Shown here one piece after another: positions 1,621-13,095 of a stretch of DNA of 42,147 nucleotides (position 1 is its first letter; every line of letters starts with the position of its first letter). The notes under the pieces were generated by a model. The model had not been told where the DNA came from. It made no database searches and saw only the letters and a list, made by a program, of their open reading frames with translations. The position numbers were made by a program, and so were the translations under genes. This DNA is from a virus: the IMG/VR virus record IMGVR_UViG_3300026270_000002; one strand, written 5' to 3'.

Positions 1621-1750
1621 TTACTTTACCTGTTCTCGCAATTGCCTTGTCATTATACCCATAGTGACGTAAAGAGGACTGATTGCTACTATAAGAAGCA
1701 GAACGACTATGCTCATTACTGAGCAAGCTCGTATTATTGACTCTTTAATC

Positions 1751-1972
1751 ATGAGAAAAATTCTTGATGCTTTAACAATCTTAACCACGATCCTAACTTT
1801 GGGCATTGTTGGTACAGGATTTTATACATACAAATTTGTAAGCAGCGAACAATTCAAAGCTAAGATTATGAACTCTATACTTGGCGAGGTAAAGGGGCTA
1901 TTACCTAACGTCATGGATAACGCATTACCAAAAACAACTGGCATATCTATACCAACACTTCCAAAAAAATAA
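1751..1972 (+). CDS. Small membrane protein (N-terminal TM helix); possible holin/spanin-like late gene
   Basis: ATG at 1751 (MRKILDALTILTTILTLGIVGTGFYTY...) lies in frame inside track ORF 1709-1972. It has one clear hydrophobic helix and follows the tail fiber genes. No family recognised. Confidence 0.5.
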   Translation: MRKILDALTILTTILTLGIVGTGFYTYKFVSSEQFKAKIMNSILGEVKGLLPNVMDNALPKTTGISIPTLPKK

Positions 1973-2626
1973 TTGGAAATACCTGAGATACATATACCTG
2001 ATGTTCATATCCCATACACTTATGTGCCTGACTATGGGCATTCAAATGTACAAATTATAGGTTGCACTTACTACCACAGAGATACAAAAAATACAGGCAA
2101 TAGAAATTTAATAATAGAAGATCCAAATGGGGTTGTGACAAATTGTCCGTACCCTAGTTTTAACCCATTGAACTATGTACCAGATCAATTAACAATTACA
2201 GAAGAGATGCCTAATCTTGCTAACGATAGTGAGATGCCAACTAGTGAGCCACCTAAAACTGAGACAACAAACAATGAAAAAAAAGAAGAAGAATACAAAC
2301 CTTGCCCTCCAAAGAACGCACCATTTAGGGAAGGAGATTACAGAAATGATAAAAAAATTGAAAGATTGGTAAAATATGAAAGAAGTATAGATGGCTCTTG
2401 TGACCCGATCTGGGAAGACGTACCATTCAGAGAAAGTCTTATTGGTACTCCTGAAGTTCTCGTTTCTACTACTGTTATCGGTCTGGTTGCCGGTGGCTCT
2501 GCGGCTCTTGTACCCTTGATACAGGGGGCGGCGAAGTCAACTATAAAACAATTAGGTAAACGTCTAAGTAAATCTAAGGTTTCAAAGAATGAGAGTGAGG
2601 TATCACCTGACCGGGAGGAACAGTAA
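1973..2626 (+). CDS. Hypothetical protein with C-terminal TM anchor
   Basis: TTG start directly abuts the upstream TAA. Cys/Pro/Tyr-rich N-terminal part, acidic-basic linker and a C-terminal hydrophobic helix (VLVSTTVIGLVAGGSAALVPLI). No family recognised; start uncertain. Confidence 0.45.
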   Translation: MEIPEIHIPDVHIPYTYVPDYGHSNVQIIGCTYYHRDTKNTGNRNLIIEDPNGVVTNCPYPSFNPLNYVPDQLTITEEMPNLANDSEMPTSEPPKTETTNNEKKEEEYKPCPPKNAPFREGDYRNDKKIERLVKYERSIDGSCDPIWEDVPFRESLIGTPEVLVSTTVIGLVAGGSAALVPLIQGAAKSTIKQLGKRLSKSKVSKNESEVSPDREEQ

Positions 2627-3287
2627 CTGCAATCCCCTCGCATATTGTTGCAAACTTACCTGTAAATTGAACACCAAGTTTAGCTTGTTCACCACATACT
2701 TTTAGCCGAAACAGAGCGACCTCTAGTTCAGTTTTCTTATACAATAATTCTTGGTTTTTTATATTTATTTCTGTTGCCTGATGACATAGTGCAGGTGATT
2801 TGCCTAATGGAATAGTAAACTGTGCTGATATACCGTAGTTTAAATTGTAGTTATCCTTCTCAAACCTTGGTGTACGCTGATAATATTTGATCTCACCAGT
2901 GTCTTCGTTGTAAATTGGTTGTACAGTTTCTGTTGATATAGGTCGGTTAAATGACCATGAGTCAGTAAGAAAAGGTGTAATGGTAAGGCTAGGTGAACTA
3001 CAAACTATACCCTGTGACATTCTAAATTGAGGGGTTGATTGTGGGGCAATCATGGTGGCATTGTTATTTACCGTTCCCTGTGCGTTACTAGATGGGCTTG
3101 CTACAGTTGTATTAGCAAATACCTTAGTTGGACATAGACAAAGTAAAACTACTGCCCAAACGTGGTTTCTACGGTGGTTGTTGTAGTGGTGTTTATTACT
3201 CTGTTGATTGTGGTAATTGTGTCTAAACCGGGAGAAATTATTGATTCGACCAAGCTGAAAGGCTGACCTTCGTTTACTATTTTCCAT
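2574..3287 (-). CDS. Envelope cassette protein 4: basic N-terminal tail, signal-anchor/signal peptide, beta-rich middle, helical C-terminus
   Basis: 237-aa ORF. The hydrophobic segment VWAVVLLCLCPTKVFA/N starts exactly after the upstream gene's stop. The only canonical start is the ATG at 3287, 139 nt inside the upstream gene. No family recognised. Confidence 0.5.
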   Translation of the reverse strand: MENSKRRSAFQLGRINNFSRFRHNYHNQQSNKHHYNNHRRNHVWAVVLLCLCPTKVFANTTVASPSSNAQGTVNNNATMIAPQSTPQFRMSQGIVCSSPSLTITPFLTDSWSFNRPISTETVQPIYNEDTGEIKYYQRTPRFEKDNYNLNYGISAQFTIPLGKSPALCHQATEINIKNQELLYKKTELEVALFRLKVCGEQAKLGVQFTGKFATICEGIAVTVPPGQVIPHSHSLKP

Positions 3288-3586
3288 CTAGGCACACCTT
3301 CCAACGTAGGACTTGTATATGAAAACTTAATGCCATTAACTGTTTGTTCAGCATCTGCTGTAGGGATTGAATTAATATAGCCATTAACATCTGCACTTTC
3401 TATGTTCGTGCCTGAGACACTTAAAGAATACCCTGTCCGAAACTGATGAGATACCACGGATTCCGTTATAACACTTTGAGTCTGGGAATTTGTGCTTGAA
3501 CTTCCTGTACGGAAGGTAGGTATTACTGGATTTGCAAGGGTTTTGACAGGAAATAATATTATGAATAGCAGCCAAAATTTAGTCAA
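3149..3586 (-). CDS. Envelope cassette protein 3: secreted Ser/Thr-rich protein, paralog-like to protein 2
   Basis: Sec-type signal peptide MTKFWLLFIILFPVKTLA/N. Shares short motifs with the 173-aa neighbour (LSVSGTNIESADV vs YSISGTNITPSV; PFSLVESI vs AFSLTESV). Confidence 0.6.
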   Translation of the reverse strand: MTKFWLLFIILFPVKTLANPVIPTFRTGSSSTNSQTQSVITESVVSHQFRTGYSLSVSGTNIESADVNGYINSIPTADAEQTVNGIKFSYTSPTLEGVPRWKIVNEGQPFSLVESIISPGLDTITTINRVINTTTTTTVETTFGQ

Positions 3587-4100
3587 TGGTTATTGTTACT
3601 GTTGTCGATCCTATGCAACTAGAACCAGATCCAAATGCACCTGAACAGGTATGCACCCCACTACTCAAACTCGTCATCACCCCACTTCCCAAAGTACCCC
3701 CAGATCCTATAGTTGTCTGTCCACCAAGATGTGGTAATGCTGCTATGCCTGACGATGGCGTGATCGCACTTGGAGTTGCGTCACCCATAGTAACTGATTC
3801 AGTAAGAGAAAAAGCTGATCCCGCTGTTGTTACCGCTTTGTCTGTTTGAATCATGGCAGGTACACCTGCGGTCAAGCTGCCTATATTTAAACCACCTATG
3901 GCATTAGATGTTGTAGATCCCCCACTAGTTACAGATGGAGTTATATTTGTACCTGATATTGAATATGTCGTGCCTAATTTATTGGTAACAGAGTACGGCA
4001 TATCTACCGAGATCTGAGCAGATGTCGTGAACTTCTGGGTAATGTCTGCTAATGCTACAGAAGGACTAAACAGTAAAAGTAGTGCTAGTAGTTTTTTCAT
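3579..4100 (-). CDS. Envelope cassette protein 2: secreted Gly/Ser/Thr-rich protein
   Basis: Signal peptide MKKLLALLLLFSPSVALA/D. Low-complexity G/S/T-rich mature part with a C-terminal Cys pair (HTCSGAFGSGSSC). Overlaps the neighbours by 4 and 8 nt, consistent with translational coupling. Confidence 0.65.
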   Translation of the reverse strand: MKKLLALLLLFSPSVALADITQKFTTSAQISVDMPYSVTNKLGTTYSISGTNITPSVTSGGSTTSNAIGGLNIGSLTAGVPAMIQTDKAVTTAGSAFSLTESVTMGDATPSAITPSSGIAALPHLGGQTTIGSGGTLGSGVMTSLSSGVHTCSGAFGSGSSCIGSTTVTITID

Positions 4101-4495
4101 TTTTTTTGTTTAGGATCAACAATTTCTGCACCAATAATTTTAATTGGCGTTTCAATTCTAACTGTTTGATAGCTGCCAGATTGTGATGCTAGTAACTCTT
4201 CTACTTCTTTTTTGTTTAATGGTTTGTCTTCTGGTTTAAATGTACCGTCACCTCTTTTCTTAGCACCTTCCAAACCAAAACTTGCTAATGCACCTGTCAG
4301 CAAACTTGCAGGGAAAGTTATATCTTTGGGTTCGTTGCTGTATCCGGGTAGCGATATGTAGTTAAGGGATACTATAAAACCACTCCATGCAACAACTACA
4401 AGTCGGACAACAACAGATATAAAAGTTAGTTGTTCTTCTTTGTCAGTAATATTTTCTTTGAGTTTTTGTAGAACTCCTTTCTTTTCCTCTGTCAT
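4097..4495 (-). CDS. Envelope cassette protein 1: membrane protein
   Basis: 132-aa ORF with the TM helix FISVVVRLVVVAWSGFIVSL and a second amphipathic segment (ASLLTGALASFGL). First gene of the minus-strand cassette. Confidence 0.6.
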   Translation of the reverse strand: MTEEKKGVLQKLKENITDKEEQLTFISVVVRLVVVAWSGFIVSLNYISLPGYSNEPKDITFPASLLTGALASFGLEGAKKRGDGTFKPEDKPLNKKEVEELLASQSGSYQTVRIETPIKIIGAEIVDPKQKK

Positions 4496-4513
4496 AATAA
4501 GGATTTATTAGTC

Positions 4514-4542
4514 ATACTATACATAATTACCTATTTACGCAA
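4514..4542 (-). promoter_or_regulatory. Sigma70-like promoter for the 4495-2574 cassette
   Basis: The minus strand reads TTGCGT (4542-4537), a 17-nt spacer, then TAGTAT (4519-4514), about 20 nt upstream of the ATG at 4495. Confidence 0.4.
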
Positions 4543-4704
4543 ATGCCAGATGTATATGCAGCACTTATAGGAGCATCTGTTACTGCACTTGTTATGGTGT
4601 TATCTAATATAAGTAGTCGTAGAGAACGAGACATACGAGACATATACTTTAGACTAAACAAGTTATCAGAAGCGGTTAGCAAAATAGAAGGCAAGATCCA
4701 ATAA
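4543..4704 (+). CDS. Small membrane protein (53 aa), missed by the ORF track
   Basis: My translation: MPDVYAALIGASVTALVMVLSNISSRRERDIRDIYFRLNKLSEAVSKIEGKIQ*. It has an N-terminal TM helix and a charged helical tail. First gene of a short plus-strand operon. Confidence 0.5.
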   Translation: MPDVYAALIGASVTALVMVLSNISSRRERDIRDIYFRLNKLSEAVSKIEGKIQ

Positions 4705-5346: not shown

Positions 5347-5635
5347 AAAAAGGTATATCGTTATCGTTTCCTTTATACGATGGAGGTATGTCTTTGCGGT
5401 TAGCTTGGTAGTCATTATCTACATCAAACATATTTACCATTATTGATCCAGAATTTTCTTTGCCACTAAAGTCAGGTATCCCTGCAAAGTTTATCCATTT
5501 ATCTAACAGCATAAATTGTTTGCCTTGGTCATTCTCCATAATGACTCCAATGTTAACCCAATTTGCCTTGGGATTACCATCCCTATCTTTGTACTCTCGT
5601 GTCTTGACGGATAGGTTCTTGATCTTTCGTGCCAT
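5345..5635 (-). CDS. ssb: Short single-stranded DNA-binding protein-like protein
   Basis: Start taken at MARKIKNLSV (ATG at 5635). The C-terminus ...KGNDNDIPF resembles the bacterial SSB acidic tip (DDDIPF). The body is only about 96 aa, so the OB-fold is assumed rather than seen. Confidence 0.55.
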   Translation of the reverse strand: MARKIKNLSVKTREYKDRDGNPKANWVNIGVIMENDQGKQFMLLDKWINFAGIPDFSGKENSGSIMVNMFDVDNDYQANRKDIPPSYKGNDNDIPF

Positions 5636-5999
5636 AAGGAATTTCCTGTAGTATGCGTATGCGGACAAAACCACCAAGGTAGTCTTGATCCATTGTTGAT
5701 ATAACAGTATTAAAACGTTTATCGTTTATGCGTAGTGCATCTGCGAGTCCGTCAATACCTGCCTTCATTCTAGCAACTAAATTGTCTCGGTCATAACTTC
5801 GTCTGTCTGGTGGTATAAACGTCATTTCTAATACTAATTTTTCTGGCAAAGAATCATATTTATATTTTTTTAGTTGTAATTTTGTAGCAGTATGACAGTT
5901 TTGTCTGTATTGTTTCTTCGCTCTAGCTACTTGTGCCCAGTGCTTTCTTGCGTTTGGGGAGAGATCTGTTGGCGGCCAACCCAATACTATCTCAATCAT
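5583..5999 (-). CDS. rusA: RusA-family Holliday junction resolvase
   Basis: MIEIVLGWPPTDLSPNARKHW..., then PDRRSYDRDNLVARMKAGIDGLADAL. The size and the D..DN...K...D pattern are typical of RusA. Confidence 0.8.
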   Translation of the reverse strand: MIEIVLGWPPTDLSPNARKHWAQVARAKKQYRQNCHTATKLQLKKYKYDSLPEKLVLEMTFIPPDRRSYDRDNLVARMKAGIDGLADALRINDKRFNTVISTMDQDYLGGFVRIRILQEIPYGTKDQEPIRQDTRVQR

Positions 6000-6159
6000 T
6001 TTCTAACCTCTTTATTTCTGCCTTAATACGGTCATGGTTAACCTGCCAAAACCTACTATCTAAATCTTCAAACCACCATTGCCTATCTAATTCTGCAAGT
6101 TGGCATTTGTACCTTGCAATTTTTAAAATAGTTTCTTCCTTCATAGTTACTTGCTCCAT
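5992..6159 (-). CDS. Small hypothetical protein (55 aa, or 50 aa from ATG 6144), missed by the ORF track
   Basis: My translation: MEQVTMKEETILKIARYKCQLAELDRQWWFEDLDSRFWQVNHDRIKAEIKRLEND*. Its stop overlaps the rusA start (ATGATTGA). Confidence 0.35.
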   Translation of the reverse strand: MEQVTMKEETILKIARYKCQLAELDRQWWFEDLDSRFWQVNHDRIKAEIKRLEND

Positions 6160-6227
6160 AGTTTAATTAATAATTCTAGTTCTTTGATGCGTGTTTTAGC
6201 TGCTGCAATCTTTTGTTCAGTTGTCAT
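6147..6227 (-). CDS. Possible 26-aa micro-ORF (MTTEQKIAAAKTRIKELELLIKLWSK)
   Basis: The ATG overlaps the stop of the upstream gene (TAATG). It fills the gap between 6227 and 6159. Very short, so weakly supported. Confidence 0.2.
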   Translation of the reverse strand: MTTEQKIAAAKTRIKELELLIKLWSK

Positions 6228-7174
6228 TAAAATAGTACTCCTTGTGTAGTTGGTTCATATGACGCATCATATCTTTTGTTTTTACCTTTTGGATAAGGTT
6301 GAATTTTTAAGTTCAAATCTTTATGTATTTTATTCTTGTCCTTACCTTTTATAAATAAATAACGATGTTTTGGGCGTGGTTCATACCTTTCTTGTAAATG
6401 CAATTGCCTAATAACATCTTGCCTGTCTGGATACCATTCAAAATTAGTCATAAGATTATCTAATGAGTCATCAAAATTTAGTATTTTTTTTAATTTTATC
6501 CAATCGTCAACTGTTGGAAAACTAAAACCTTTGTCTAATCGAAACCAATGTGCAGCGGTATCTTTATATCCAAAGATTTTATCTAATTGATTAGCTGTAA
6601 ACTCACCTTTATTTTTTCTAAGAAAATTAGCTATTAAGACCCTATCTATATTCAGTTCATTTATTCTTCGTTTTCTATGCTTAATGTCTTTTCTACCTTT
6701 TAATCTGTCTAACACATGAGCTAAGTTTCTAAAATGAAATTCGTTTCCTTCTTTATCTATTAATTTTTTTTGATTAGCTGTTGTGCCTGTATATAAAAAA
6801 TTACAAGCTTGATATATGTAACCGTGATGGTTCATGTTAGTGTCACTAAAACTAATAATAATGTCAAAATTTTTTAATGATTTTATTGTTTTACTTACAA
6901 AAAAAGATAAACAATTTCTTGGTAATCCTTCACTAACACAAAGTCTATTAAGCTCTATGACTTTATCCTTATATTTTCTCCCTGCTATACTTTCACACAG
7001 AGTTGGACTAGCTGGCATTCCATAAGTGCAAACTCCTTGTAATGCATGATCTTTATATAAACCAAACGCAATGGTAATTGATGGTATTCTTTTTGCGTAA
7101 TGCTTTTTTAAAAACCAATCACGGCATTCAATAGTCATAATTTGTTTAACCATATAAGTACTAGGTATTGTCAT
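6227..7174 (-). CDS. Mom-like (GNAT-fold) putative DNA-modification acyltransferase with a roughly 150-aa C-terminal extension
   Basis: As I recall the family, the N-terminal half resembles Mom adenine-methylcarbamoylation proteins (WFLKKHYAKRIP..GVCTYGMPAS..IELNRLCV..SFSDTNMNHHGYIYQACNFLYTG). Start chosen at ATG 7174, behind AGGAGA. From memory, not searched. Confidence 0.5.
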   Translation of the reverse strand: MTIPSTYMVKQIMTIECRDWFLKKHYAKRIPSITIAFGLYKDHALQGVCTYGMPASPTLCESIAGRKYKDKVIELNRLCVSEGLPRNCLSFFVSKTIKSLKNFDIIISFSDTNMNHHGYIYQACNFLYTGTTANQKKLIDKEGNEFHFRNLAHVLDRLKGRKDIKHRKRRINELNIDRVLIANFLRKNKGEFTANQLDKIFGYKDTAAHWFRLDKGFSFPTVDDWIKLKKILNFDDSLDNLMTNFEWYPDRQDVIRQLHLQERYEPRPKHRYLFIKGKDKNKIHKDLNLKIQPYPKGKNKRYDASYEPTTQGVLF

Positions 7175-7946
7175 TATTTCTCCTGTAACTATCCCAATTA
7201 AATCCAATCAATGCCCCTCCGTTTTCACGCAACCTATCGGTTACACGTTCACCAAGGTAATCCGACAATTGGTCACTAGGAATATTTGATAACAAAATAG
7301 ATGGTTTAAGTTTTTCATATCTCTCATTTAATACATCAAACAATATTTGTTTTTCAAACTCTGATCCAAATTGTACGCCCACCTCATCCAGTATTAATAA
7401 ATCAGGCGATGCAAAGGCATTGATCACATCGCTTTCCGTTTCTTCTTTTGTTCTCCAACTGTCCTTAACTCTTCTTATAAGACGCTGTACGGTGACAAAT
7501 ACTGGTGACCGTTGTTGTTGCATAATGCTCAACGCAATGCCTACTGCCAAATGGGTTTTGCCTGTACCCACTTTGCCAACAAAGATTGCAGAACGTCCTG
7601 TTTTTATTACTTGGTCAAAGTCTTCTGCATACTCTTTAGCAAAAGCTAATGCCTTCTGTTGACCACTTGTCTTTGCTACATAGCTATCCAATGTCCGATC
7701 CTTAAATCGTTCTGGAATAGCTGCACTGCCTATCTTCGCTGCCCATATACGTTGCTCACGCTCTTGTTCACGAAGTTTGTCAGCTTTGATTTGCTCTAAG
7801 GCTTCCTTTTGCTTACGTTCCATCATGCATTTAGGACACTCTGTCCAATGCTCGCCAATAAAGTTTGTTGAAGTATACGCAACATTGTGTATAGAACAAG
7901 TGCGTTCTTCTGTCGGCCTGTCTTTGTTAATTAGATCTTCTAACAT
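7161..7946 (-). CDS. DnaC/IstB-like AAA+ helicase loader with an N-terminal zinc-finger-like motif
   Basis: Walker A GKVGTGKTH and Walker B LLILDEVG. N-terminal CSIH...CPKC. Start chosen at ATG 7946, behind GGAGACAGGAGGAG. Confidence 0.8.
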   Translation of the reverse strand: MLEDLINKDRPTEERTCSIHNVAYTSTNFIGEHWTECPKCMMERKQKEALEQIKADKLREQEREQRIWAAKIGSAAIPERFKDRTLDSYVAKTSGQQKALAFAKEYAEDFDQVIKTGRSAIFVGKVGTGKTHLAVGIALSIMQQQRSPVFVTVQRLIRRVKDSWRTKEETESDVINAFASPDLLILDEVGVQFGSEFEKQILFDVLNERYEKLKPSILLSNIPSDQLSDYLGERVTDRLRENGGALIGFNWDSYRRNNDNT

Positions 7947-8113
7947 TCTCCTCCTGTCTCCCAAGTTTCAATTTGTTTTTGAATTGTTTCTAAGCTTAGA
8001 ATCCACGCTTTTCTATCTATTATTTGGCTAGTACGAAATTGATTTAATAAATAATCAACACTTTTTTTAACTTGAAGCATTGCTTCGTATTCTTTTAGTG
8101 TTTGGAAAATCAT
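7940..8113 (-). CDS. Small hypothetical protein (57 aa), missed by the ORF track
   Basis: My translation: MIFQTLKEYEAMLQVKKSVDYLLNQFRTSQIIDRKAWILSLETIQKQIETWETGGEC*. Its start overlaps the upstream stop (ATGA) and its end overlaps the DnaC-like start. Confidence 0.4.
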   Translation of the reverse strand: MIFQTLKEYEAMLQVKKSVDYLLNQFRTSQIIDRKAWILSLETIQKQIETWETGGEC

Positions 8114-8763
8114 ATCTTTTGTACTCCCTCACCGTAGTTAGTAGTAGCAAAAGATTTTTGTTCTTTTTCAATCCAATCAGATTTAAAACTTTGCCATCCC
8201 CTTGCTTGCACCATAACCAATGCATCCTCCAAGCTAATAGAAGTTTTACTAACTTCTTTTTTTATACCTTTTAAGGCAGTTTCTGTTAATGGTTTTTTTA
8301 AATTTTTTCTGTGAATAAGAAAATCCTCCCATGTTTTTTTAGTTACATTGTTTGGACGCTTTAGCGTATCCTTAATTGGTTTATGGTTATTGGTTATTGG
8401 TTTATGGTTATTGGTTGGCAGTTGTCCACCGCTAGTGGACTTGCGGTTCACTAACGCTGCACTCTTACCACCCCTAGAAGAAGCTGCCAATTTGTTTTTA
8501 TATTTCTGTATTTCTTCATCTGCTCTTGCAAGTGTCCATCCCTTACCAACATCATGTGTAAAATATTTATTCAACACATAGGTAACTTCGGGTATGTTGT
8601 CAGGCATTCTAATTTCACGAGCCACTTCTCCTATATCTTCCAGCAATGGTTTCTCATGCAGGTAATAGATCATCATGCATCTGATGTATGCAATGTCCTC
8701 AATTGGCGTGAGGTGTGCAGTGTGGCTCATGTAATCACTAATGTGAAAAGAGAAGTAATGCAT
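8110..8763 (-). CDS. DUF1376 (YdaU-like) replication-initiation-associated protein
   Basis: The N-terminus MHYFSFHISDYMSHTAHLTPIEDIAYIRCMMIYY is typical of DUF1376. It sits immediately upstream of the DnaC-like loader, as in lambdoid O/P-type modules. Confidence 0.75.
   Translation of the reverse strand: MHYFSFHISDYMSHTAHLTPIEDIAYIRCMMIYYLHEKPLLEDIGEVAREIRMPDNIPEVTYVLNKYFTHDVGKGWTLARADEEIQKYKNKLAASSRGGKSAALVNRKSTSGGQLPTNNHKPITNNHKPIKDTLKRPNNVTKKTWEDFLIHRKNLKKPLTETALKGIKKEVSKTSISLEDALVMVQARGWQSFKSDWIEKEQKSFATTNYGEGVQKI
8375..8416. repeat. Perfect 21-bp x2 tandem repeat (attggtttatggttattggtt), carrying ATTGGTT four times
   Basis: Read directly. It encodes TNNHKPI-TNNHKPI in the linker of the DUF1376 protein. 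Confidence 0.9.
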
Positions 8764-9563
8764 TACTCCTCCTTGCGGTAGTTATTAATTACGTTATCTG
8801 CTGCCTGATCTACTTCTTCGTTAGCCATACCCATAGCTTCTTTTAATCTAGACAGTGGTTTATCTTGTTTATCAGGATTAGGAGTAACGTTTACTGGCTC
8901 TTTAAAATTAGTTTCTTCATCTATTCTTACAACAGAGTTAATTGCATCGTTCTTTGGTAGTCGTTTTGCAATACGATGAATAACAGTTTTTTTAGCCATC
9001 TGGTCAAACCATTTTGCCCAAGGACTATGAGGTGATGAACTAGCTTTTGATACCTGACGGCATTTTTCTATTTCTGCCATGTTCATAATCTCTATGTATT
9101 GACCATCGTTACTTGTTACAGCAATCGCATAAACACATACAGGTTGACCCTTATCACCAGTAATTAATGGCTTATGAGTTATATGTTGTTTAGTGCCTAA
9201 CTCATAATCAAATAAATCATTTTCGTATACAACTTCAGCACATAAAGTTTTTATTAATCCACTGTTATGTAATACCTTAATGATTCCTTCGACCATAGGA
9301 ATGTATTGAACTGAGTTGCCATACTGAACTGCTGCTGCTTCTTTGCCATCTAGATATAAACCATCTTGTGCAGCTTTCATGAAGGTTTGCATCAAACTAG
9401 TTTTATCTGCTTGTAGCAATCTTGGATTTTTATTTAGCGTTAACTTGGCTACACTAATAAATTTGTTTACATCCATTTGCTTTGGCAAAGCTTCTGTAAA
9501 TTTGTCCGCCATTTTTTCAAGTGTTCCCTGCATGGCTACAAGTGGTGTGATTGATGAGGTCAT
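8763..9563 (-). CDS. recT: RecT-family single-strand annealing recombinase
   Basis: The N-terminal and core pattern (KFISVAKLTLNKNPRLLQADKTSLMQTFMKAAQDGLYLDGKEAA..IPMVEG) is typical of RecT. It is paired with a YqaJ exonuclease gene. Confidence 0.85.
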   Translation of the reverse strand: MTSSITPLVAMQGTLEKMADKFTEALPKQMDVNKFISVAKLTLNKNPRLLQADKTSLMQTFMKAAQDGLYLDGKEAAAVQYGNSVQYIPMVEGIIKVLHNSGLIKTLCAEVVYENDLFDYELGTKQHITHKPLITGDKGQPVCVYAIAVTSNDGQYIEIMNMAEIEKCRQVSKASSSPHSPWAKWFDQMAKKTVIHRIAKRLPKNDAINSVVRIDEETNFKEPVNVTPNPDKQDKPLSRLKEAMGMANEEVDQAADNVINNYRKEE

Positions 9564-9566
9564 TAG

Positions 9567-10514
9567 TTAAACTCCTTTTGGTTGATTAAATTTAAATTGG
9601 CGAAAGCCTTTGCGTGGGTTGATGTATGTACCAACCATATCTTGGGTAATGTATTTACCTTGACTACCCTTAGTCATTCCGCAGTTGATAATTCCATACT
9701 TAGAAATGATCTTAGATGCACCTATACTTTTTTCTAGTATTTGTGCTTTTATAGAATCTTTTTGTTTGCCAAGTGAAACGTACTCTTTGTTGATTGCGTT
9801 GTAGTCATCAACTAATTGATCCATGTCTTCATCTGCTTCTAGAAACAAACTAGGGTCAGCATGATTACATAACTTTTTAATTATGTAATTAGAATCTCTT
9901 TCATAATCAATCTCAGGTGGTGTACCTGTCTTAATTCTGCTCCAAAACTCTTTAACCCTTGCTTCTAGTTGCTCTCCAATATCTGTGTTCCTGTCTCTAA
10001 TGATTAACTTTTGTGTGTTACCACCAACTAACGCAACTATGCATCCCCAATTAATGTTGGCTACATGAAGTTGATGTTGTAGCTGCATTTCAATGTGAGG
10101 TGGTGCTTCAATGTTGCCGTTACCATCGTCAATCCATTTCGTGCGATAAACCATTGAGTCAACATTTTTGACTTCCATAATTCCTAGCTCGTCACCACTA
10201 GTAATTTTGTAATCAAAAGAGCTACCCATTCTAGTTTTAGTGTTGCTCATGTATACATCAAATGGTTCTACATCCCATCCTTGTATGTCTGCACAACCTT
10301 GAGCTATAGAGTCTTCAAGTCTGCGACCCCATGCCATCCTTTCGCTGTCCTCCAGATTAATAACTACTTTATCTTTTTTCTGGTTGTACAACTCAAACTC
10401 TGTTTGGTATGGGTTGACATTAAACAATGCTGATACTTCTGTAGAAGTTACATCAAGCAATCTGTTTTCTAACCAATCTTGTTTGTTGGTTATTGGAATT
10501 TCTTTTACGGTCAT
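9567..10514 (-). CDS. YqaJ-like (lambda Exo-type) recombination exonuclease
   Basis: DWLENRLLDVTSTEVSALFNVNPYQTEFELYNQK matches the YqaJ N-terminal signature. It lies directly upstream of recT. Confidence 0.8.
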   Translation of the reverse strand: MTVKEIPITNKQDWLENRLLDVTSTEVSALFNVNPYQTEFELYNQKKDKVVINLEDSERMAWGRRLEDSIAQGCADIQGWDVEPFDVYMSNTKTRMGSSFDYKITSGDELGIMEVKNVDSMVYRTKWIDDGNGNIEAPPHIEMQLQHQLHVANINWGCIVALVGGNTQKLIIRDRNTDIGEQLEARVKEFWSRIKTGTPPEIDYERDSNYIIKKLCNHADPSLFLEADEDMDQLVDDYNAINKEYVSLGKQKDSIKAQILEKSIGASKIISKYGIINCGMTKGSQGKYITQDMVGTYINPRKGFRQFKFNQPKGV

Positions 10515-10747
10515 TAAAATAATTCTCCTTGTTTGTAGTTTTTTGGAAATGAATAACTGGCATATGATTTGCCGTTATCATCTTTTAAAATTTCAGTTTG
10601 TATGACGTAACCTTTGTTTCTTAGGTCATTCATTCGGGCTGCAAGTCTGAAGCATTGAAATTTTTCTAGTGCTTCGATTGGTGTTAATGACCCTCCACTT
10701 TCTAAGAAGTTAAGGATCATTGCATTCTGAGAACTTAACCTACTCAT
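10514..10747 (-). CDS. Winged-helix DNA-binding protein
   Basis: ILNFLESGGSLTPIEALEKFQCFRLAARMNDLRNKGYVI follows the common phage wHTH pattern (HTH then ...RLaaRI.DLR.kG..I). Confidence 0.6.
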   Translation of the reverse strand: MSRLSSQNAMILNFLESGGSLTPIEALEKFQCFRLAARMNDLRNKGYVIQTEILKDDNGKSYASYSFPKNYKQGELF

Positions 10748-11049
10748 AGGTCAGGACTCTCTTGAAACTTGCGGTAGTCTTGGTCTGGAACAATTTGCAT
10801 TTTCCATTTACCAGTACAAACAGTATTCCCACCTGAGTTCCATGTAGGATCTTCTTTCTCATATTCATAATCAGAAAGTTGATACTGCTTTTCTTCTTCA
10901 ATGCAACCTGACTCAAAATGCTTGCGGCTACCATCAGTAAAGGAACATGAAGGCCAAACAATTCTGGTAATCTCCATTTGTATTTCTTTTAGCCTGTCAT
11001 CAAGTGAATACTCGCTGTTGGCATAAAGTTCGATAGTAATTTTTCTCAT
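10744..11049 (-). CDS. Hypothetical protein (101 aa)
   Basis: ORF-track entry with 4-nt overlaps to both neighbours. No family recognised. Confidence 0.5.
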   Translation of the reverse strand: MRKITIELYANSEYSLDDRLKEIQMEITRIVWPSCSFTDGSRKHFESGCIEEEKQYQLSDYEYEKEDPTWNSGGNTVCTGKWKMQIVPDQDYRKFQESPDL

Positions 11050-11234
11050 TGTGTAACCTCCATAACGTGTTGAATAACTGGGTCGCTGACAAATGTATTC
11101 ACATTGTCACGTTGCTTTTTACCGATAACAGTTAAATCTCTAGAAACAATTTGTGCTGCTTCAAGTAAACTGTCTGCTTCAATCACAAATGTGTGATGAA
11201 TAGTTTTTCTTTCTACGATTTCGTATTTGGTCAT
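11046..11234 (-). CDS. Hypothetical protein (62 aa)
   Basis: ORF-track entry, first gene after a hairpin terminator. No family recognised. Confidence 0.5.
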   Translation of the reverse strand: MTKYEIVERKTIHHTFVIEADSLLEAAQIVSRDLTVIGKKQRDNVNTFVSDPVIQHVMEVTQ

Positions 11235-11260
11235 TTCAATAATGGTTAATAGTGTTTTTA

Positions 11261-11294
11261 AGGAAAATAAAAATGAGTGTGACTAAGCACACCC
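11261..11294 (-). terminator. Candidate rho-independent terminator within the early leftward block
   Basis: The minus strand reads GGGTGTG-cttagt-CACACTC (a 7-bp stem with one G-U pair), followed by ATTTTTATTTT. Confidence 0.45.
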
Positions 11295-11312
11295 ATATAA
11301 TGAAGGTTGTCA

Positions 11313-11723
11313 TCAAGTGACCTCCTTTAATACGATTACTTTTTCTGATTCATAGACTTTGTCTACAGTTAGATTGATTGCACAATCTTGTTCCATGTAT
11401 TCAATGTATTGGTCATCTGTCCAATTCATAGAATCATTATCTATTTCGTATATGCCACGCTCCATAGCAATTGCTTTGGCATGATATACATAAAACATTG
11501 ATGCAAGTTTTTCTCTATTGAGTTTTTCTAAACTTGCAAAAGTTTTTTGAACAAGGCTGAACTCACCATCTTCATTTACTTCATGACCAATTACTAAATA
11601 GAATGTATGGTCATCTAATTCACACTCAAGAGCTAACTCTTCATCCCAATCTTCAGAAGTGTGCTTTGAGTAGGGAAGGCTGGACAAGTAGTCCAACCTT
11701 TCCAGTTTCTGGGTATCTGTCAT
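11313..11723 (-). CDS. Strongly acidic hypothetical protein (136 aa)
   Basis: ORF-track entry. My hand count gives about 31 D/E against 12 K/R. No family recognised. Confidence 0.55.
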   Translation of the reverse strand: MTDTQKLERLDYLSSLPYSKHTSEDWDEELALECELDDHTFYLVIGHEVNEDGEFSLVQKTFASLEKLNREKLASMFYVYHAKAIAMERGIYEIDNDSMNWTDDQYIEYMEQDCAINLTVDKVYESEKVIVLKEVT

Positions 11724-12142
11724 GCACCCTCCACAAACTCTGGGAACTCTTGAGATAGTCTGTTCTCAATAGTCTTGTAGTCCATGTCATGGTCTTTTAT
11801 GTAATCAAGCCTATATTGCTTAAGACTTTCCTTTCTAGCTTTGGTCTGTTTAACCTGCTTTTGTAAATGCTTAATCTCAGCTTGCAATTTTTTAATGTGT
11901 GGATCACAAGCTTTTATAGAACTGTCTGTTTGTTGAAGATGCATAAATACACCTTGTGACCAAAAACCAGTTTTATCGTAGTTGTCATCTTCCAATGCTC
12001 TTTCGAGATCGTGATGCCTACAGTTGAGATCATCATCCCAATGTTTTGATTGTTCTCCTCCAAGTTCAAACATTCTTGTATGAAACTTTTCGAGAATTGC
12101 AAATGACTTTTCAGCCCATGCGTAATAGTGACCTGCTTTCAT
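11720..12142 (-). CDS. Hypothetical protein (140 aa) with a C-terminal coiled-coil-like segment
   Basis: ORF-track entry with a 4-nt overlap to the downstream gene. No family recognised. Confidence 0.55.
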   Translation of the reverse strand: MKAGHYYAWAEKSFAILEKFHTRMFELGGEQSKHWDDDLNCRHHDLERALEDDNYDKTGFWSQGVFMHLQQTDSSIKACDPHIKKLQAEIKHLQKQVKQTKARKESLKQYRLDYIKDHDMDYKTIENRLSQEFPEFVEGA

Positions 12143-12148
12143 GTCTTT

Positions 12149-12175
12149 GTTAATAGAAATTAGTAAAGGACAATT
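12149..12175 (-). repeat. Conserved 5' leader element, copy A (minus strand AATTGTCCTTTACTAATTTCTATTAAC)
   Basis: A 16-nt exact match plus flanking similarity to 14054-14081. It lies 6 nt upstream of the ATG at 12142. Confidence 0.6.
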
Positions 12176-12199
12176 GAAGGCATAACACCTTCATTAACT

Positions 12200-12228
12200 A
12201 GTGTACAACATAATGCAACACTTGTCAA
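12200..12228 (-). promoter_or_regulatory. Sigma70-like early leftward promoter
   Basis: The minus strand reads TTGACA (12228-12223), a 17-nt spacer, then TACACT (12205-12200). Confidence 0.5.
12212..12223. promoter_or_regulatory. Operator-like 12-mer AATGCAACACTT, copy 2
   Basis: Identical to 12633-12644. It abuts the -35 hexamer of the promoter at 12200-12228. Confidence 0.35.
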
Positions 12229-12237
12229 ATAATTAAT

Positions 12238-12399
12238 TTAATCGTATGCATCTCTTTTCTTTAAAACTTCTACCTCTGACTCACATCTGGGGCATGATAA
12301 GTTAGTCATTACTGAAAACTCAGGATATCCACTCATGCCCTCTTCAATATCGACATCAGAACCCCATATAAGATCGCTATCACACCACCAACACCTCAT
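12238..12399 (-). CDS. Small zinc-ribbon protein (53 aa), missed by the ORF track
   Basis: My translation: MRCWWCDSDLIWGSDVDIEEGMSGYPEFSVMTNLSCPRCESEVEVLKKRDAYD*. It has two CxxC pairs, and its ATG directly follows the stop of the Cro-like gene. Confidence 0.5.
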   Translation of the reverse strand: MRCWWCDSDLIWGSDVDIEEGMSGYPEFSVMTNLSCPRCESEVEVLKKRDAYD

Positions 12400-12615
12400 T
12401 TATTCTTCTCCAAAAATAATAGAATATGGGGTAATATTTAAATTTAATTCCCATGCCTTTTCAAGTACTGTTCTTTGAACACTGGTAGGAATTAACCCTG
12501 ATTTTTTCCATTTTGAAATACTACCGCAGTGCCTATGAATAATTCTAGCCATAGGACGGACTCCTCCAAATTCTTTTATACAGTGTTCAACTGGCGTAAG
12601 TTTTGCTTTTTCCAT
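12400..12615 (-). CDS. Cro/Ner-like small HTH regulator
   Basis: Start taken at MEKAKLTPVEHCIKEFGGVRPMARIIHRHCGSISKWKKSGLIP, an HTH-like pattern common in small phage regulators. The upstream track extension (MLHLCQYRD) overlaps the predicted promoter. Confidence 0.55.
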   Translation of the reverse strand: MEKAKLTPVEHCIKEFGGVRPMARIIHRHCGSISKWKKSGLIPTSVQRTVLEKAWELNLNITPYSIIFGEE

Positions 12616-12621
12616 ATCTCT

Positions 12622-12650
12622 ATATTGGCATAAATGCAACACTTAATCAA
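12622..12650 (-). promoter_or_regulatory. Sigma70-like promoter placed to give a leaderless Cro-like mRNA
   Basis: The minus strand reads TTGATT (12650-12645), a 17-nt spacer, then CAATAT (12627-12622). The ATG at 12615 begins 7 nt after the -10 hexamer. Confidence 0.4.
12633..12644. promoter_or_regulatory. Operator-like 12-mer AATGCAACACTT, copy 1
   Basis: Identical to 12212-12223. It lies in the spacer next to the -35 hexamer of the Cro-like promoter. Confidence 0.35.
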
Positions 12651-12660
12651 GTAATTAGGC

Positions 12661-12686
12661 AAAAAAAAGAGGGTTGTTAACCCTCT
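12661..12686 (-). terminator. Rho-independent terminator (minus strand)
   Basis: The minus strand reads AGAGGGTT-aac-AACCCTCT followed by T8. The stop codon of the 48-aa ORF lies in the loop. Confidence 0.7.
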
Positions 12687-12823
12687 CTATCAAGCCATTT
12701 AACAGAATCTTCATTAATTTCTTTTAATGCGTCTATGACTTCGTCATGGCTGAAGTTACGATTGATTGCATTGTCTCCAAAAGCAATTTCATAAACTTGT
12801 TCAATAAATTGTTTGTTGTCCAT
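12677..12823 (-). CDS. Small hypothetical protein (48 aa), missed by the ORF track
   Basis: My translation: MDNKQFIEQVYEIAFGDNAINRNFSHDEVIDALKEINEDSVKWLDREG*. The ATG overlaps the upstream stop (TAATG). Confidence 0.45.
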   Translation of the reverse strand: MDNKQFIEQVYEIAFGDNAINRNFSHDEVIDALKEINEDSVKWLDREG

Positions 12824-13005
12824 TACTTTGTACCTCCAAGGATAGATTCGATTTTGTCTCTACACTCTTTTGCTTGGTCTTCGGTAATGTGTGCAGCGAA
12901 TGATTCAGCCATGCTTTCACATTCTTTTTGTAGTGCTTCATCTTTTGTGGTCAAAGCTAATACTAAAGCTTGATAGTATGCTTGTTGGTGGTTTTGAATG
13001 GTCAT
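12823..13005 (-). CDS. Hypothetical helical protein (60 aa)
   Basis: ORF-track entry. No family recognised. Confidence 0.5.
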   Translation of the reverse strand: MTIQNHQQAYYQALVLALTTKDEALQKECESMAESFAAHITEDQAKECRDKIESILGGTK

Positions 13006-13062
13006 GTCAAATAAGGATTAAGAATAAAAGTAAGTAAGGAAATAGTGCGAAAGCCATAATTA

Positions 13063-13095
13063 ATAAAAAAAAGAAAGGTGAGCTTATTGCTCACC
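13063..13095 (-). terminator. Rho-independent terminator overlapping the end of the ArdC-like gene
   Basis: The minus strand reads GGTGAGC-aataa-GCTCACC followed by TTTCTTTTTTTT. Confidence 0.65.

What the first reader, a model, noticed from the sequence alone, without database searches (positions are those of the whole stretch)
2574..4542. Self-contained four-gene cassette of exported or membrane proteins of unrecognised family
Four co-oriented, overlapping minus-strand genes have their own sigma70-like promoter (TTGCGT-17-TAGTAT, 4542-4514). They are separated from both the early and late blocks.
- Gene 1 is a membrane protein (FISVVVRLVVVAWSGFIVSL).
- Genes 2-4 each carry a Sec-type signal sequence (..LLLLFSPSVALA/D, ..LLFIILFPVKTLA/N, VWAVVLLCLCPTKVFA/N).
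- Genes 2 and 3 look like diverged paralogs (YSISGTNITPSV vs LSVSGTNIESADV; AFSLTESV vs PFSLVESI). Both are Ser/Thr/Gly-rich with no catalytic motif.
- Gene 4 ends in a long predicted helix.

I cannot place any of them in the holin, endolysin, spanin, curli or chaperone-usher families. Proteins routed through Sec are unlikely to be virion components.

Candidate roles are superinfection exclusion or receptor masking, a periplasmic or surface polymer, or an unconventional lysis device. The last is worth considering because this complete genome has no recognisable endolysin.
Basis: partly seen in the sequence, partly recalled or inferred. Interest (0 to 1): 0.72.

Follow-up and report, generated by a model that had tools for sequence, protein, structure and literature searches.

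The report
Pan-cyanophage envelope module, probable lysis genes
The four genes are half of a six-gene set of membrane and exported proteins shared by nearly all tail types of phage infecting marine Prochlorococcus and Synechococcus; it is made late and is the best candidate for their unknown lysis machinery.

Summary
The four minus-strand genes are real and are membrane or exported proteins, but they are not self-contained. They are half of a convergent six-gene module. The other half is two plus-strand membrane-protein genes at 1709-2626.

All six genes recur in the same order in 80 metagenomic relatives: g1-g3 in 100% of loci with enough flank, the partners in 92-97%. They also recur in T4-like cyanomyoviruses (Syn9 gp161-167, P-HM2 PHM2_191-197), S-TIM5 and siphoviruses MED4-117/P-HS2. 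T7-like cyanopodoviruses P-SSP7 and P-GSP1 carry four of them, where T7 has its holin and spanins.

The families are catalogued but uncharacterised (DUF6450, DUF6322, PHROGs 564/650/848/568/570). No cellular homologues were found.

- Genes 2 and 3 are paralogs (hhalign 95.9%).
- Gene 4 starts inside gene 3; that frame is open in 88/88 loci.
- The AlphaFold2 models (gene 3 moderate, gene 4 low confidence) show long beta-hairpins with no significant fold match.
- P-HM2 homologues are expressed middle to late.
- These phages lack recognisable holin, endolysin and spanin genes.

Best reading, at 0.45: a cyanophage-specific envelope-disruption (lysis) module. No function has been demonstrated.

The parts
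4097..4495 (-). g1: small inner-membrane protein with two hydrophobic segments and charged ends. It is a holin-like candidate and the homologue of Syn9 gp161, P-HM2 PHM2_191 and P-SSP7 PSSP7_043.
   Evidence: Pfam DUF6450, E 3.3e-21. phrog_2714 and phrog_721. Hydropathy and family alignment show TMD1 at about 22-44 and a G/A/S/T-rich TMD2 at about 58-78. The P-SSP7 record notes '2 transmembrane regions predicted by TMHMM' for the homologue. PHM2_191 is classed as late.
3579..4100 (-). g2: Sec-exported Ser/Thr/Gly-rich beta protein and a paralog of g3. It is the homologue of Syn9 gp167 and PHM2_197. Some records name it 'OMP1 protein'.
   Evidence: phrog_564, E 5e-29. The signal peptide MKKLLALLLLFSPSVALA/D has an AxA site kept in 6 of 7 diverse homologues. 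hhalign against the g3 family gives 95.9%. tblastn finds 89 phage records, all cyanophage or marine. PHM2_197 is Late (E).
3149..3586 (-). g3: Sec-exported beta protein. Long N- and C-terminal strands flank a small beta domain. It is the homologue of Syn9 gp166, PHM2_196 and PSSP7_044.
   Evidence: Pfam DUF6322, E 3.8e-21. phrog_650. AlphaFold2 pLDDT 74.3, with strands 28-50 and 120-143. BFVD matches only its own family, TM 0.69. The PSSP7_044 record carries a SignalP note.
2574..3287 (-). g4: exported protein with four invariant Cys and a C-terminal PHxH motif. The model shows a long beta-hairpin followed by a 40-residue helix. It starts at an ATG inside g3. It is the homologue of Syn9 gp165, PHM2_195 and PSSP7_045.
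   Evidence: phrog_848 and phrog_1755. Invariant C96, C168, C198, C216, H231 and H233. AlphaFold2 pLDDT 57.6, with the core at about 70-83. tblastn finds 387 cyanophage records. The family has 605 clusters at 50% identity.
3149..3287 (.). Out-of-frame overlap of g3 and g4. It encodes the basic, poorly conserved N-terminal extension of g4.
   Evidence: The g4 frame is open for at least 41 codons upstream of the g3 stop in 88 of 88 loci (median 57). The control frame has a median of 9 and a maximum of 21. Codon-position variability follows the g3 frame. The overlap is also annotated in MED4-117, Syn9, P-HM2 and S-SM1.
1973..2626 (+). p164-like partner gene (homologue of Syn9 gp164 and PHM2_194). 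It has a conserved MEIP N-terminus, four invariant Cys, and a C-terminal hydrophobic segment with a basic tail. It converges on g4 and overlaps it.
   Evidence: phrog_570, E 3.6e-31. Alignment A5 shows invariant C31, H35, D50, C58, C111 and C143. It is present next to g4 in 58 of 60 IMG/VR loci with enough flank. PHM2_194 is classed as late.
1709..1972 (+). p162-like partner gene (homologue of Syn9 gp162 and PHM2_192, mis-named 'plasmid stability'). It has an N-terminal signal-anchor TMD and a tail of about 50 residues. The likely true start is near 1751.
   Evidence: phrog_568, E 8.8e-15. Family alignment and hydropathy. Present in 49 of 53 loci. PHM2_192 is classed as late.
2574..2626 (.). 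Tail-to-tail (3') overlap of the two convergent halves, g4 and p164.
   Evidence: Window coordinates. The same convergent overlap is annotated in Syn9, P-TIM40, P-SSM2 and S-TIM5. No terminator-like site lies between the two genes.
4514..4519 (-). TAGTAT, a -10-like box 19 nt upstream of the g1 ATG.
   Evidence: It recurs 8-45 nt upstream of g1 in 29 of 54 distinct relatives, in at least two sequence contexts, against 1.3 expected from shuffles. The proposed -35 is not conserved, and the pair was not listed by the scanner.
4543..4704 (+). Divergent 53-aa ORF with an N-terminal TMD and a charged C-terminal half. It may be a seventh membrane component. Its membership of the module was not tested.
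   Evidence: phrog_26178, E 6e-5. Hydropathy. Its start codon abuts the g1 upstream region in close relatives.

Best explanation
The four genes are the minus-strand half of a convergent six-gene envelope module, possibly seven genes. The module is specific to phages of marine Prochlorococcus and Synechococcus. Its most likely job is to break the host envelope at the end of infection, that is, lysis.

PROPOSED MECHANISM
1. Late in infection, three small inner-membrane proteins accumulate. They are g1 (two TMDs with charged ends, holin-like), p162 (an N-terminal signal anchor) and p164 (a C-terminal anchor with a Cys-rich domain).
2. In parallel, three proteins are exported by Sec and cleaved at conserved AxA sites. 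They are the paralogs g2 and g3, and g4.
3. g4, and perhaps the Cys-rich domain of p164, is likely disulfide-bonded outside the cytoplasm.
4. The long beta-hairpins of g2, g3 and g4 assemble into an oligomer in the periplasm or outer membrane.
5. When the holin-like protein triggers, this oligomer breaches the wall and/or outer membrane. It would thus stand in for the endolysin-spanin arm that these phages lack.

SHOWN
- Gene content, gene order and co-occurrence.
- Restriction of the module to cyanophages.
- Hydrophobic segments, signal-peptide features and invariant cysteines.
- Paralogy of g2 and g3.
- The conserved overlap of g3 and g4.
- Middle-to-late transcription of the P-HM2 homologues.
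- The module's position in T7-like genomes.

INFERRED
- Export and topology.
- Oligomerisation.
- Any lytic activity.
For: - The module travels as a unit. In 80 IMG/VR relatives, g3 is present in 64 of 64 loci with enough flank, g2 in 61 of 61, g1 in 57 of 57, p164 in 58 of 60 and p162 in 49 of 53, always in the same order.
- The same genes occur in T4-like cyanomyoviruses, in TIM5-like myoviruses, in siphoviruses and in T7-like podoviruses. These include Syn9, S-RSM4, P-SSM2, P-TIM40, Syn30, P-HM2, S-SM1, S-TIM5, MED4-117, P-HS2, P-GSP1 and P-SSP7.
- P-SSP7, P-HS2 and P-HM2 are three lytic phages of one host, MED4, with different tail types, and all three carry the module. This argues for a host-envelope function rather than a receptor-specific one.
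- tblastn hits come only from cyanophage or marine-virus records. Among 185,579 species genomes only 12 loci matched. I read these as phage contigs, from their lengths and from the presence of the full module; one is a 41-kb contig in a Prochlorococcus single-cell genome.
- In P-GSP1 and P-SSP7 the genes lie between the tail fibre and the small terminase. From established knowledge of T7, that is where genes 17.5 (holin) and 18.5/18.7 (spanins) lie.
- P-SSP7 lacks T7 genes 3.5, 17.5 and 18.5. Its authors suggested that ORFs in the homologous positions may supply these functions.
- Marine cyanophages, including Syn9, P-SSM2 and S-RSM4, are listed as spanin-less. The T4 r genes are absent from cyanomyoviruses.
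- The P-HM2 homologues are expressed middle to late. PHM2_191-194 and 197 are Late, 195 is Mid(C), and 196 is Late or Mid.
- In this 42-kb genome every strongly hydrophobic real gene lies in 1709-4704, at the end of the late operon. No muralytic domain was found elsewhere.
- g1 has the generic holin hallmarks.
- Both AlphaFold2 models show strands of 21-24 residues. Their best, non-significant, Foldseek neighbours are subunits of oligomeric beta-barrel tubes and pores: FlgH, anthrax PA, lysenin, CDTb, and the phi29, Andhra and P68 lower collars.
Against: - No component has detectable homology to any holin, endolysin or spanin. No experiment bears on function.
- No candidate peptidoglycan hydrolase was identified in the module or anywhere in the genome, so the wall-degrading step is unexplained.
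- No protein in the module has a lipobox, so the spanin mechanism cannot be transferred to it.
- The structure models are of low to moderate confidence (pTM 0.26 and 0.37). All fold matches are non-significant, with TM-scores of 0.21 or below.
- The long strands are Ser/Thr-rich on both faces. Only one g4 strand has a clear alternating hydrophobic pattern. A lipid-embedded barrel is therefore not indicated.
- The T7-like cyanophage Syn5 lyses its host, yet no module gene was found in its genome. The module is therefore not universal.
- g4 is classed Mid(C) rather than Late in P-HM2.
- The positional argument from T7 is synteny, not homology.
Confidence: 0.45

Rival explanations
1. The module remodels the envelope for superinfection exclusion, or to mask or destroy receptors. 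Exported proteins would coat or block periplasmic or outer-membrane components. Secondary phages could then not inject, or progeny would not be lost on cell debris.
For: The proteins are exported or membrane-bound and lie outside the virion blocks. The decameric surface-exclusion lipoprotein TraT appears among the non-significant fold neighbours of g4. Cyanophages lack the T4 r genes that act in superinfection and lysis inhibition.
Against: The module is shared by phages with unrelated tails and receptor-binding proteins, so a receptor-specific blocker is unlikely. Its conservation is core-like, whereas exclusion genes are usually variable accessory genes. Expression in P-HM2 is middle to late, not early. 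There are no hits in the PADLOC defence library. There is no lipobox, unlike TraT and, from established knowledge, T5 Llp.
Confidence: 0.12
2. The module modifies host physiology in the periplasm or thylakoid lumen. The signal peptides would route g2-g4 to the lumen or periplasm, where they alter photosynthetic, transport or envelope processes during infection. This would be an auxiliary function rather than lysis.
For: The module is restricted to phages of photosynthetic picocyanobacteria. In myoviruses it sits among hli, petF, psbA, plastocyanin, transaldolase, hsp20 and pstS genes. g4 has four invariant Cys plus PHxH, which could bind a metal. From established knowledge, cyanobacterial Sec signals serve both the periplasm and the lumen.
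Against: No cellular homologue was found, unlike host-derived auxiliary genes. Neighbouring auxiliary genes such as hli03 are Mid(B), while most module genes are Late. P-HS2 is scored as having no auxiliary metabolic genes, yet it keeps the module. In podoviruses the module lies in the tail-fibre to terminase block. No cofactor or enzyme domain was detected.
Confidence: 0.12
3. The module is needed to build the virion. Its proteins would be structural or membrane-associated assembly factors, for example a beta-barrel tube or collar-like part, or an inner-membrane assembly platform.
For: Expression is late, alongside structural genes. The best fold neighbours of g3 include the lower collar proteins of phages Andhra, phi29 and P68. 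In the window, the plus-strand half continues the late operon after the tail-fibre genes.
Against: Conserved cleavable signal peptides and invariant cysteines point to export from the cytoplasm, where virions assemble. The same proteins serve podo-, sipho- and myoviruses, which have unrelated tails. In records that flag virion proteins (S-TIM5, S-RSM4), the module genes are not flagged. This last point is weak, because I did not read the proteome tables.
Confidence: 0.08
4. The exported paralogs polymerise into a periplasmic or surface fibre or sheath. Its role would be neither lysis nor exclusion, for example envelope stabilisation during a long latent period, or altered buoyancy or grazing.
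For: The sequences are Ser/Thr/Gly-rich and consist mainly of beta structure. The long strands are polar on both faces. A spore-appendage subunit appears among the weak fold neighbours. g2 and g3 are paralogs, as is common for fibre subunits.
Against: No usher, sortase or secretin-like partner is present. No repeats or amyloid-type motifs were seen. The fold matches are not significant. This reading does not explain the three inner-membrane partners or the T7 holin-slot position.
Confidence: 0.08

Closest known systems
Phage lysis cassettes (holin + endolysin + spanin; the T7 17.5 / 3.5 / 18.5-18.7 and lambda S-R-Rz/Rz1 paradigm)
   Same: - It is a cluster of small membrane and exported proteins, made late.
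- It lies at the end of the late block, and in T7-like cyanophages in the T7 holin/spanin slot.
- One member (g1) has the generic holin look.
- Two members are encoded by overlapping out-of-frame genes, as in overlapped spanin pairs.
- Conserved periplasmic cysteines recall the disulfide-linked Rz/Rz1.
   Different: - No sequence or significant fold relation to any holin, endolysin or spanin.
- No muralytic domain, no lipoprotein, and no type II coiled-coil i-spanin.
- Three Sec-exported beta-rich proteins take the place of the enzyme and the spanins.
- The genes are split into two convergent halves.
Oligomeric beta-hairpin pore or ring formers (aerolysin/lysenin/binary-toxin pores, FlgH L-ring, TraT)
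   Same: In the g3 and g4 models, each subunit has a very long beta-hairpin, and g4 also has a long helix. These structures are the top fold neighbours of both models.
   Different: All matches are non-significant (best E 1.3e-3 to 0.06, TM-scores of 0.21 or below). There is no cap or receptor-binding domain. Most of the strands lack a hydrophobic face. The proteins would act from the periplasmic side, after Sec export.
Pfam DUF6450 and DUF6322; PHROGs 2714/721, 564, 650, 848/1755, 568, 570; cyanomyovirus clusters T4-GC 218, 414, 234-237
   Same: The window proteins are ordinary, high-scoring members of these catalogued families.
   Different: These entries carry no function. Names such as 'OMP1 protein' and 'plasmid stability' are unsupported labels. 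I found no description of these families as one module spanning all cyanophage morphotypes.
Non-spanin outer-membrane disruptors of 'spanin-less' phages (for example the phiKT gp28 cationic peptide; from my own knowledge, not checked here)
   Same: It would solve the same problem, breaching the outer membrane without a spanin, in a phage group listed as spanin-less.
   Different: That system is a single small cationic amphipathic peptide. This one has several Sec-exported folded beta proteins plus membrane partners.

Membership tests
Pfam DUF6450 (g1) and DUF6322 (g3) | Score above the curated gathering threshold of the family model | tested here: met
   g1 scores 75.3 bits against a cutoff of 25. 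g3 scores 75.9 bits against a cutoff of 30.6.
Holin (g1) | Small protein with at least one TMD and a charged, hydrophilic C-terminus | tested here: met
   g1 is 132 aa. Two hydrophobic segments are conserved across podo-, sipho- and myovirus homologues, and the tail is rich in Lys and Glu. The P-SSP7 record notes TMHMM '2 transmembrane regions' for the homologue.
Holin (g1) | Encoded next to an endolysin in a lysis cassette | tested here: not met
   No muralytic domain was found in the module or in any other scanned ORF of the window.
Holin (g1) | Forms lethal membrane lesions at a programmed time | not testable with these tools
   This needs expression and membrane-permeabilisation assays.
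Two-component spanin (o-spanin) | Outer-membrane lipoprotein with a lipobox and Cys at +1 of the mature protein | tested here: not met
   The predicted mature N-termini are D (g2), N (g3) and N (g4). The Cys residues in the g4 hydrophobic segment (LLCLC) have Leu at -1 and are absent in MED4-117 and the myoviruses.
Two-component spanin (i-spanin) | Type II inner-membrane protein with a long periplasmic coiled-coil domain | tested here: inconclusive
   p162 has an N-terminal signal-anchor TMD, but only about 50 residues follow it. Coiled-coil content was not computed. No spanin family hit was found.
Unimolecular spanin | N-terminal lipoprotein signal plus a C-terminal TMD in one chain | tested here: not met
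   p164 has a C-terminal hydrophobic segment. It begins MEIPEI..., with no signal peptide or lipobox.
Endolysin | Recognisable peptidoglycan hydrolase domain (lysozyme, transglycosylase, amidase or peptidase) | tested here: not met
   The six proteins have no such Pfam, NCBIfam or PHROG hit. Profile searches against PDB sequences for g2, g3, g4 and p164 found nothing better than E 0.16.
Beta-barrel pore-forming toxins / oligomeric beta-hairpin rings | Significant structural similarity to a solved member | tested here: inconclusive
   The top Foldseek hits are of this kind, but best E is 0.057 for g4 and 1.3e-3 for g3, with TM-scores of 0.21 or below, on models with pTM 0.26 and 0.37.
Superinfection-exclusion proteins (T4 Imm/Sp type) | Early expression and homology to known exclusion or defence families | tested here: not met
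   The P-HM2 homologues are Mid(C) to Late(E). There are no PADLOC hits.

The most novel reading that the evidence does not exclude
Phages of marine picocyanobacteria may use a new kind of lysis machinery. Three Sec-exported beta-hairpin proteins (g2, g3, g4) would form a hetero-oligomeric structure in the periplasm or outer membrane. A holin-like protein and two other inner-membrane partners would control it. Together they would replace both the endolysin and the spanins. The conserved start of g4 inside g3 would serve to couple or ration the synthesis of g4.
Probability: 0.3. Interest if true: 0.85.

Novelty: new variant of a known kind. Interest (0 to 1): 0.68.

Why it matters
Prochlorococcus and Synechococcus are among the most abundant phototrophs on Earth. 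Phage lysis of these cells moves a large share of ocean carbon. Yet their phages have no recognisable holin, endolysin or spanin genes.

This work delimits a late-expressed module of six membrane and exported proteins. Podo-, sipho- and myoviruses of these hosts share it, and it is absent from cells. That gives a concrete, testable candidate for the missing machinery. Genetic tools for cyanophages now exist, so the test is feasible.

If the reading is correct, the module would be a lysis route without a recognisable muralytic enzyme or lipoprotein spanin. It would also be a marker gene set for cyanophage contigs. If the reading is wrong, a core module of three exported proteins still calls for an explanation.

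Tried and rejected
- NCBIfam and PADLOC scans of the four proteins gave nothing.
- Profile searches against PDB sequences for g2, g3, g4 and p164 gave nothing better than E 0.16.
- Foldseek against the PDB gave no significant match for either model. Foldseek of the g3 model against BFVD returned only the protein's own family.
- I rejected a twin-arginine (Tat) signal for g4. The HRRNH motif of the window is not kept in the myovirus or podovirus homologues.
- I rejected a lipoprotein reading of g4. Its Cys residues are not in a lipobox context and are not conserved.
- I tested whether the g4 N-terminal extension is a conserved peptide. It is not: codon-position variability follows the g3 frame. 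The T-avoidance count is circular by construction, so I replaced it with the open-frame comparison.
- I looked for host-derived origins. The scan of species genomes gave only 12 loci, which I read as phage contigs from their contig lengths and module content.
- I looked for an anticorrelation between the module and conventional lysis genes. Syn5 lacks the module but has no clear conventional lysis genes either. Its gp14, with an HExxH motif, scores below threshold for Peptidase_M76. The test is therefore uninformative.
- Nine full-text searches found no paper assigning a function to these genes.
- The Syn9 transcriptome paper is not held. The supplement of the 2010 cyanomyovirus paper was cut before the relevant clusters.

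Full report
**What is at the site**

The region holds four co-oriented minus-strand ORFs:
- g1, 4097-4495, 132 aa
- g2, 3579-4100, 173 aa
- g3, 3149-3586, 145 aa, TTG start
- g4, 2574-3287, 237 aa

They overlap by 4, 8 and 139 nt. g1 has a strong hydrophobic segment at residues 22-44 and a weaker G/A/S-rich one at 58-78, with charged N- and C-terminal regions.

g2 and g3 start with classical signal peptides. The residue at -1 of the predicted cleavage site is an invariant Ala in 121 g3 homologues and in 72 g4 homologues. The AxA site is kept in 6 of 7 diverse g2 homologues.

The only canonical start is ATG 3287, inside g3. This puts 42 basic residues in front of the hydrophobic segment.

**The families are catalogued but have no function**

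- g1 is Pfam DUF6450 and g3 is DUF6322.
- All four have PHROG families of unknown function: 2714/721, 564, 650 and 848/1755.
- NCBIfam, PADLOC and PDB-sequence searches gave nothing.

**The unit is larger than reported**

Two plus-strand genes converge on g4 and overlap its 3' end:
- 1709-1972 is phrog_568, labelled 'plasmid stability'. It has one N-terminal TMD.
- 1973-2626 is phrog_570. It has four invariant Cys and a C-terminal hydrophobic segment with a basic tail.

In Syn9 the same six families lie together, as gp167-166-165 converging on gp164-(163)-162-161. The same holds in P-HM2 (PHM2_197-196-195 against 194-191), S-RSM4, P-TIM40, Syn30, S-SM1 and S-TIM5, and partly in P-SSM2. The siphoviruses MED4-117 and P-HS2 have exactly the window's arrangement.

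The T7-like podoviruses P-GSP1 and P-SSP7 carry a short p164, g1, g3 and g4. These are co-oriented and lie between the tail fibre and the small terminase.

I built HMMs of the six families and scanned 80 IMG/VR loci found with g4. Wherever the contig reached far enough:
- g3 was present in 64 of 64 loci
- g2 in 61 of 61
- g1 in 57 of 57
- p164 in 58 of 60
- p162 in 49 of 53

The order was always the same.

The window phage is not a MED4-117 relative overall. It has T7-like tail-tube and internal-virion genes plus lambdoid RecET, DnaC and RusA genes. It shares only the module region with MED4-117 at about 70% nucleotide identity. The module therefore moves between phage lineages.

**Distribution**

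- tblastn of each protein against 50,697 phage records hit only Synechococcus or Prochlorococcus phages, records named 'Cyanophage', and uncultured marine virus records. g4 hit 387 records, g1 310, g3 111 and g2 89.
- The g4 family has at least 8,000 clusters at 90% identity and 605 clusters at 50% identity.
- A scan of one genome per species for 185,579 species gave 12 loci. From their contig lengths and full module content I read all of them as phage contigs inside single-cell or metagenome assemblies. One is a 41-kb contig in a Prochlorococcus single-cell genome.
- I therefore see no evidence of a host origin.
- Syn5, a T7-like cyanophage of another clade, has no module gene.

**The g3/g4 overlap**

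The g4 reading frame is open for at least 41 codons upstream of the g3 stop in 88 of 88 loci, with a median of 57. These loci span myo-, podo- and siphovirus lineages. The other alternative frame has a median of 9 and a maximum of 21 open codons.

Within the overlap, nucleotide variability follows the g3 frame. In g4-frame terms, the entropy is 1.21 at position 1, 0.68 at position 2 and 0.48 at position 3. The extension is therefore kept open and basic, but its sequence is not conserved.

I read this as selection for starting g4 translation inside g3, for coupling or dosage. I do not read it as selection for a functional peptide. This interpretation is an inference.

**Structure**

The AlphaFold2 model of g4 has mean pLDDT 57.6 and pTM 0.26, with the core at about 68-83. 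It shows a hairpin of 21-residue strands (106-126 and 133-154) followed by a 40-residue helix (164-203). Insertions in the myovirus homologues fall at the hairpin tip.

The model of g3 has pLDDT 74.3 and pTM 0.37. It shows 23-24-residue N- and C-terminal strands flanking a small beta domain. An independent BFVD model of a homologue agrees with it, at TM 0.69.

Foldseek against the PDB gave no significant match. The top neighbours of both models are subunits that contribute one long hairpin to an oligomeric barrel or ring. They include the FlgH L-ring, the anthrax, CDTb and iota pores, lysenin, aerolysin, TraT, and the phi29, Andhra and P68 lower collars.

Most strand faces are polar. Only g4 147-160 alternates clearly between polar and hydrophobic residues. 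Oligomerisation is plausible. A lipid-spanning barrel is not shown.

**Timing and context**

In P-HM2 infecting Prochlorococcus MED4, supplementary file 3 of PMC5082946 classes the homologues as follows:
- PHM2_191-194: Late
- PHM2_195 (g4): Mid(C)
- PHM2_196 (g3): Late or Mid
- PHM2_197 (g2): Late(E)

Neighbouring hli genes are Mid(B).

In the window, the plus-strand pair ends the late operon after the tail-fibre genes. Every strongly hydrophobic real gene of the genome lies in 1709-4704. This includes an extra 53-aa TMD ORF at 4543-4704.

The proposed promoter is weak. By my own reading it matches the consensus at 7 of 12 positions. The scanner did not list it, and promoter-like sites in the region are at chance level. 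The TAGTAT box does recur upstream of g1 in 29 of 54 distinct relatives, in two different sequence contexts.

**Interpretation**

Four facts point to host lysis:
- The module is core-like across phages whose tails and receptor-binding proteins differ but whose hosts are the same. That fits a host-envelope task, not a receptor-specific one.
- Expression is middle to late.
- In T7-like genomes it occupies the place of T7 17.5 and 18.5/18.7. P-SSP7 lacks T7 3.5, 17.5 and 18.5, and its authors suggested that ORFs at the homologous positions may supply those functions (PMC1079782).
- Marine cyanophages are listed as spanin-less (PMC6139136) and lack the T4 r genes (PMC2984593). No muralytic domain was found in this genome.

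g1 has the generic holin features.

Against this reading:
- Nothing has homology to known lysis proteins.
- No wall-degrading enzyme has been identified.
- No lipoprotein is present.
- Syn5 does without the module.
- The models are weak.

I put the lysis reading at 0.45. The rivals are lower: exclusion or receptor masking at 0.12, periplasm or thylakoid-lumen physiology at 0.12, virion assembly at 0.08, and a periplasmic or surface polymer at 0.08.

**Novelty**

The genes have been known as hypothetical cyanophage proteins since 2005. Nine full-text searches found no functional assignment for them. They also found no description of them as one module shared by all morphotypes.

If it is a lysis system, it is a new variant built from non-homologous parts. 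The most novel reading, at a probability of about 0.3, is an exported beta-hairpin complex that replaces both endolysin and spanin.

Noticed in passing
window 29305-37968 (+): A 2887-aa protein follows the T7-like internal-virion genes. It carries an ADP-ribosyltransferase domain of polyvalent proteins (ART-PolyVal, E 8e-18) and an LPD22 domain. It is possibly an ejected effector.
   Followed up: no
window 5583-14046 (-) and 17178-41983 (+): The genome is a mosaic. It has a T7-like portal, capsid, tail tubular A/B and internal-virion genes. These are combined with lambdoid RecE/RecT, an O-like initiator, a DnaC-like loader and RusA, plus a Mom-like DNA-modification protein and an anti-restriction protein.
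   Followed up: partly
window 14782-15279 (+) and 15807-17132 (-): The small and large terminase genes lie on opposite strands, apart from the main structural block. The large subunit is on the minus strand.
   Followed up: no
window 4543-4704 (+): A 53-aa ORF diverges from g1. It has an N-terminal TMD and a charged C-terminal half (phrog_26178). Its start abuts the g1 upstream region in close relatives. It could be a seventh member of the module.
   Followed up: partly
window 17691-18014 (+): A 107-aa ORF lies before the portal gene. It has sub-threshold Pfam hits to DUF2514 and T7_gp14 (E about 0.01). These are too weak to interpret.
   Followed up: no
L013 (Nonlabens xiamenensis NZ_RMVE01000006.1, 188 kb); also L009, L010, L016: Assemblies labelled as Flavobacteria, Saccharibacteria, Bacteroidetes and Euryarchaeota contain contigs with the full cyanomyovirus-type module. 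The 188-kb Nonlabens contig is the size of a cyanomyovirus genome. Contamination or mis-binning is likely.
   Followed up: no
P0242 (g3 homologue, 169 aa): A close g3 homologue carries an exact-looking internal duplication of about 24 residues, FRTGSSSTNSQT...VVSHQ, in the first long strand. The strand length therefore tolerates change.
   Followed up: no
L003 (P-SSM2 gp165), L005 and L006: g4 homologues, alignment A1 columns about 147-217: Myovirus g4 homologues carry Asp/Gly/Asn-rich insertions, such as DADGNPIGDGIID, at the tip of the predicted hairpin. These resemble calcium-binding loops. P-SSM2 has a much larger insertion and a long C-terminal tail.
   Followed up: no
L106 3667-4116 (Syn5 gp14) and L103 8393-8653 (Syn5 gp47): Syn5 lacks the module. 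It has a signal-peptide protein with an HEVWH motif (sub-threshold Peptidase_M76). It also has, directly after the tail fibre, an 86-aa protein with an N-terminal TMD. These are possible alternative lysis genes.
   Followed up: partly
L008 6720-8753: In the Prochlorococcus single-cell contig, about 2 kb carrying three other ORFs is inserted between g4 and p164. The two convergent halves can therefore be separated.
   Followed up: no
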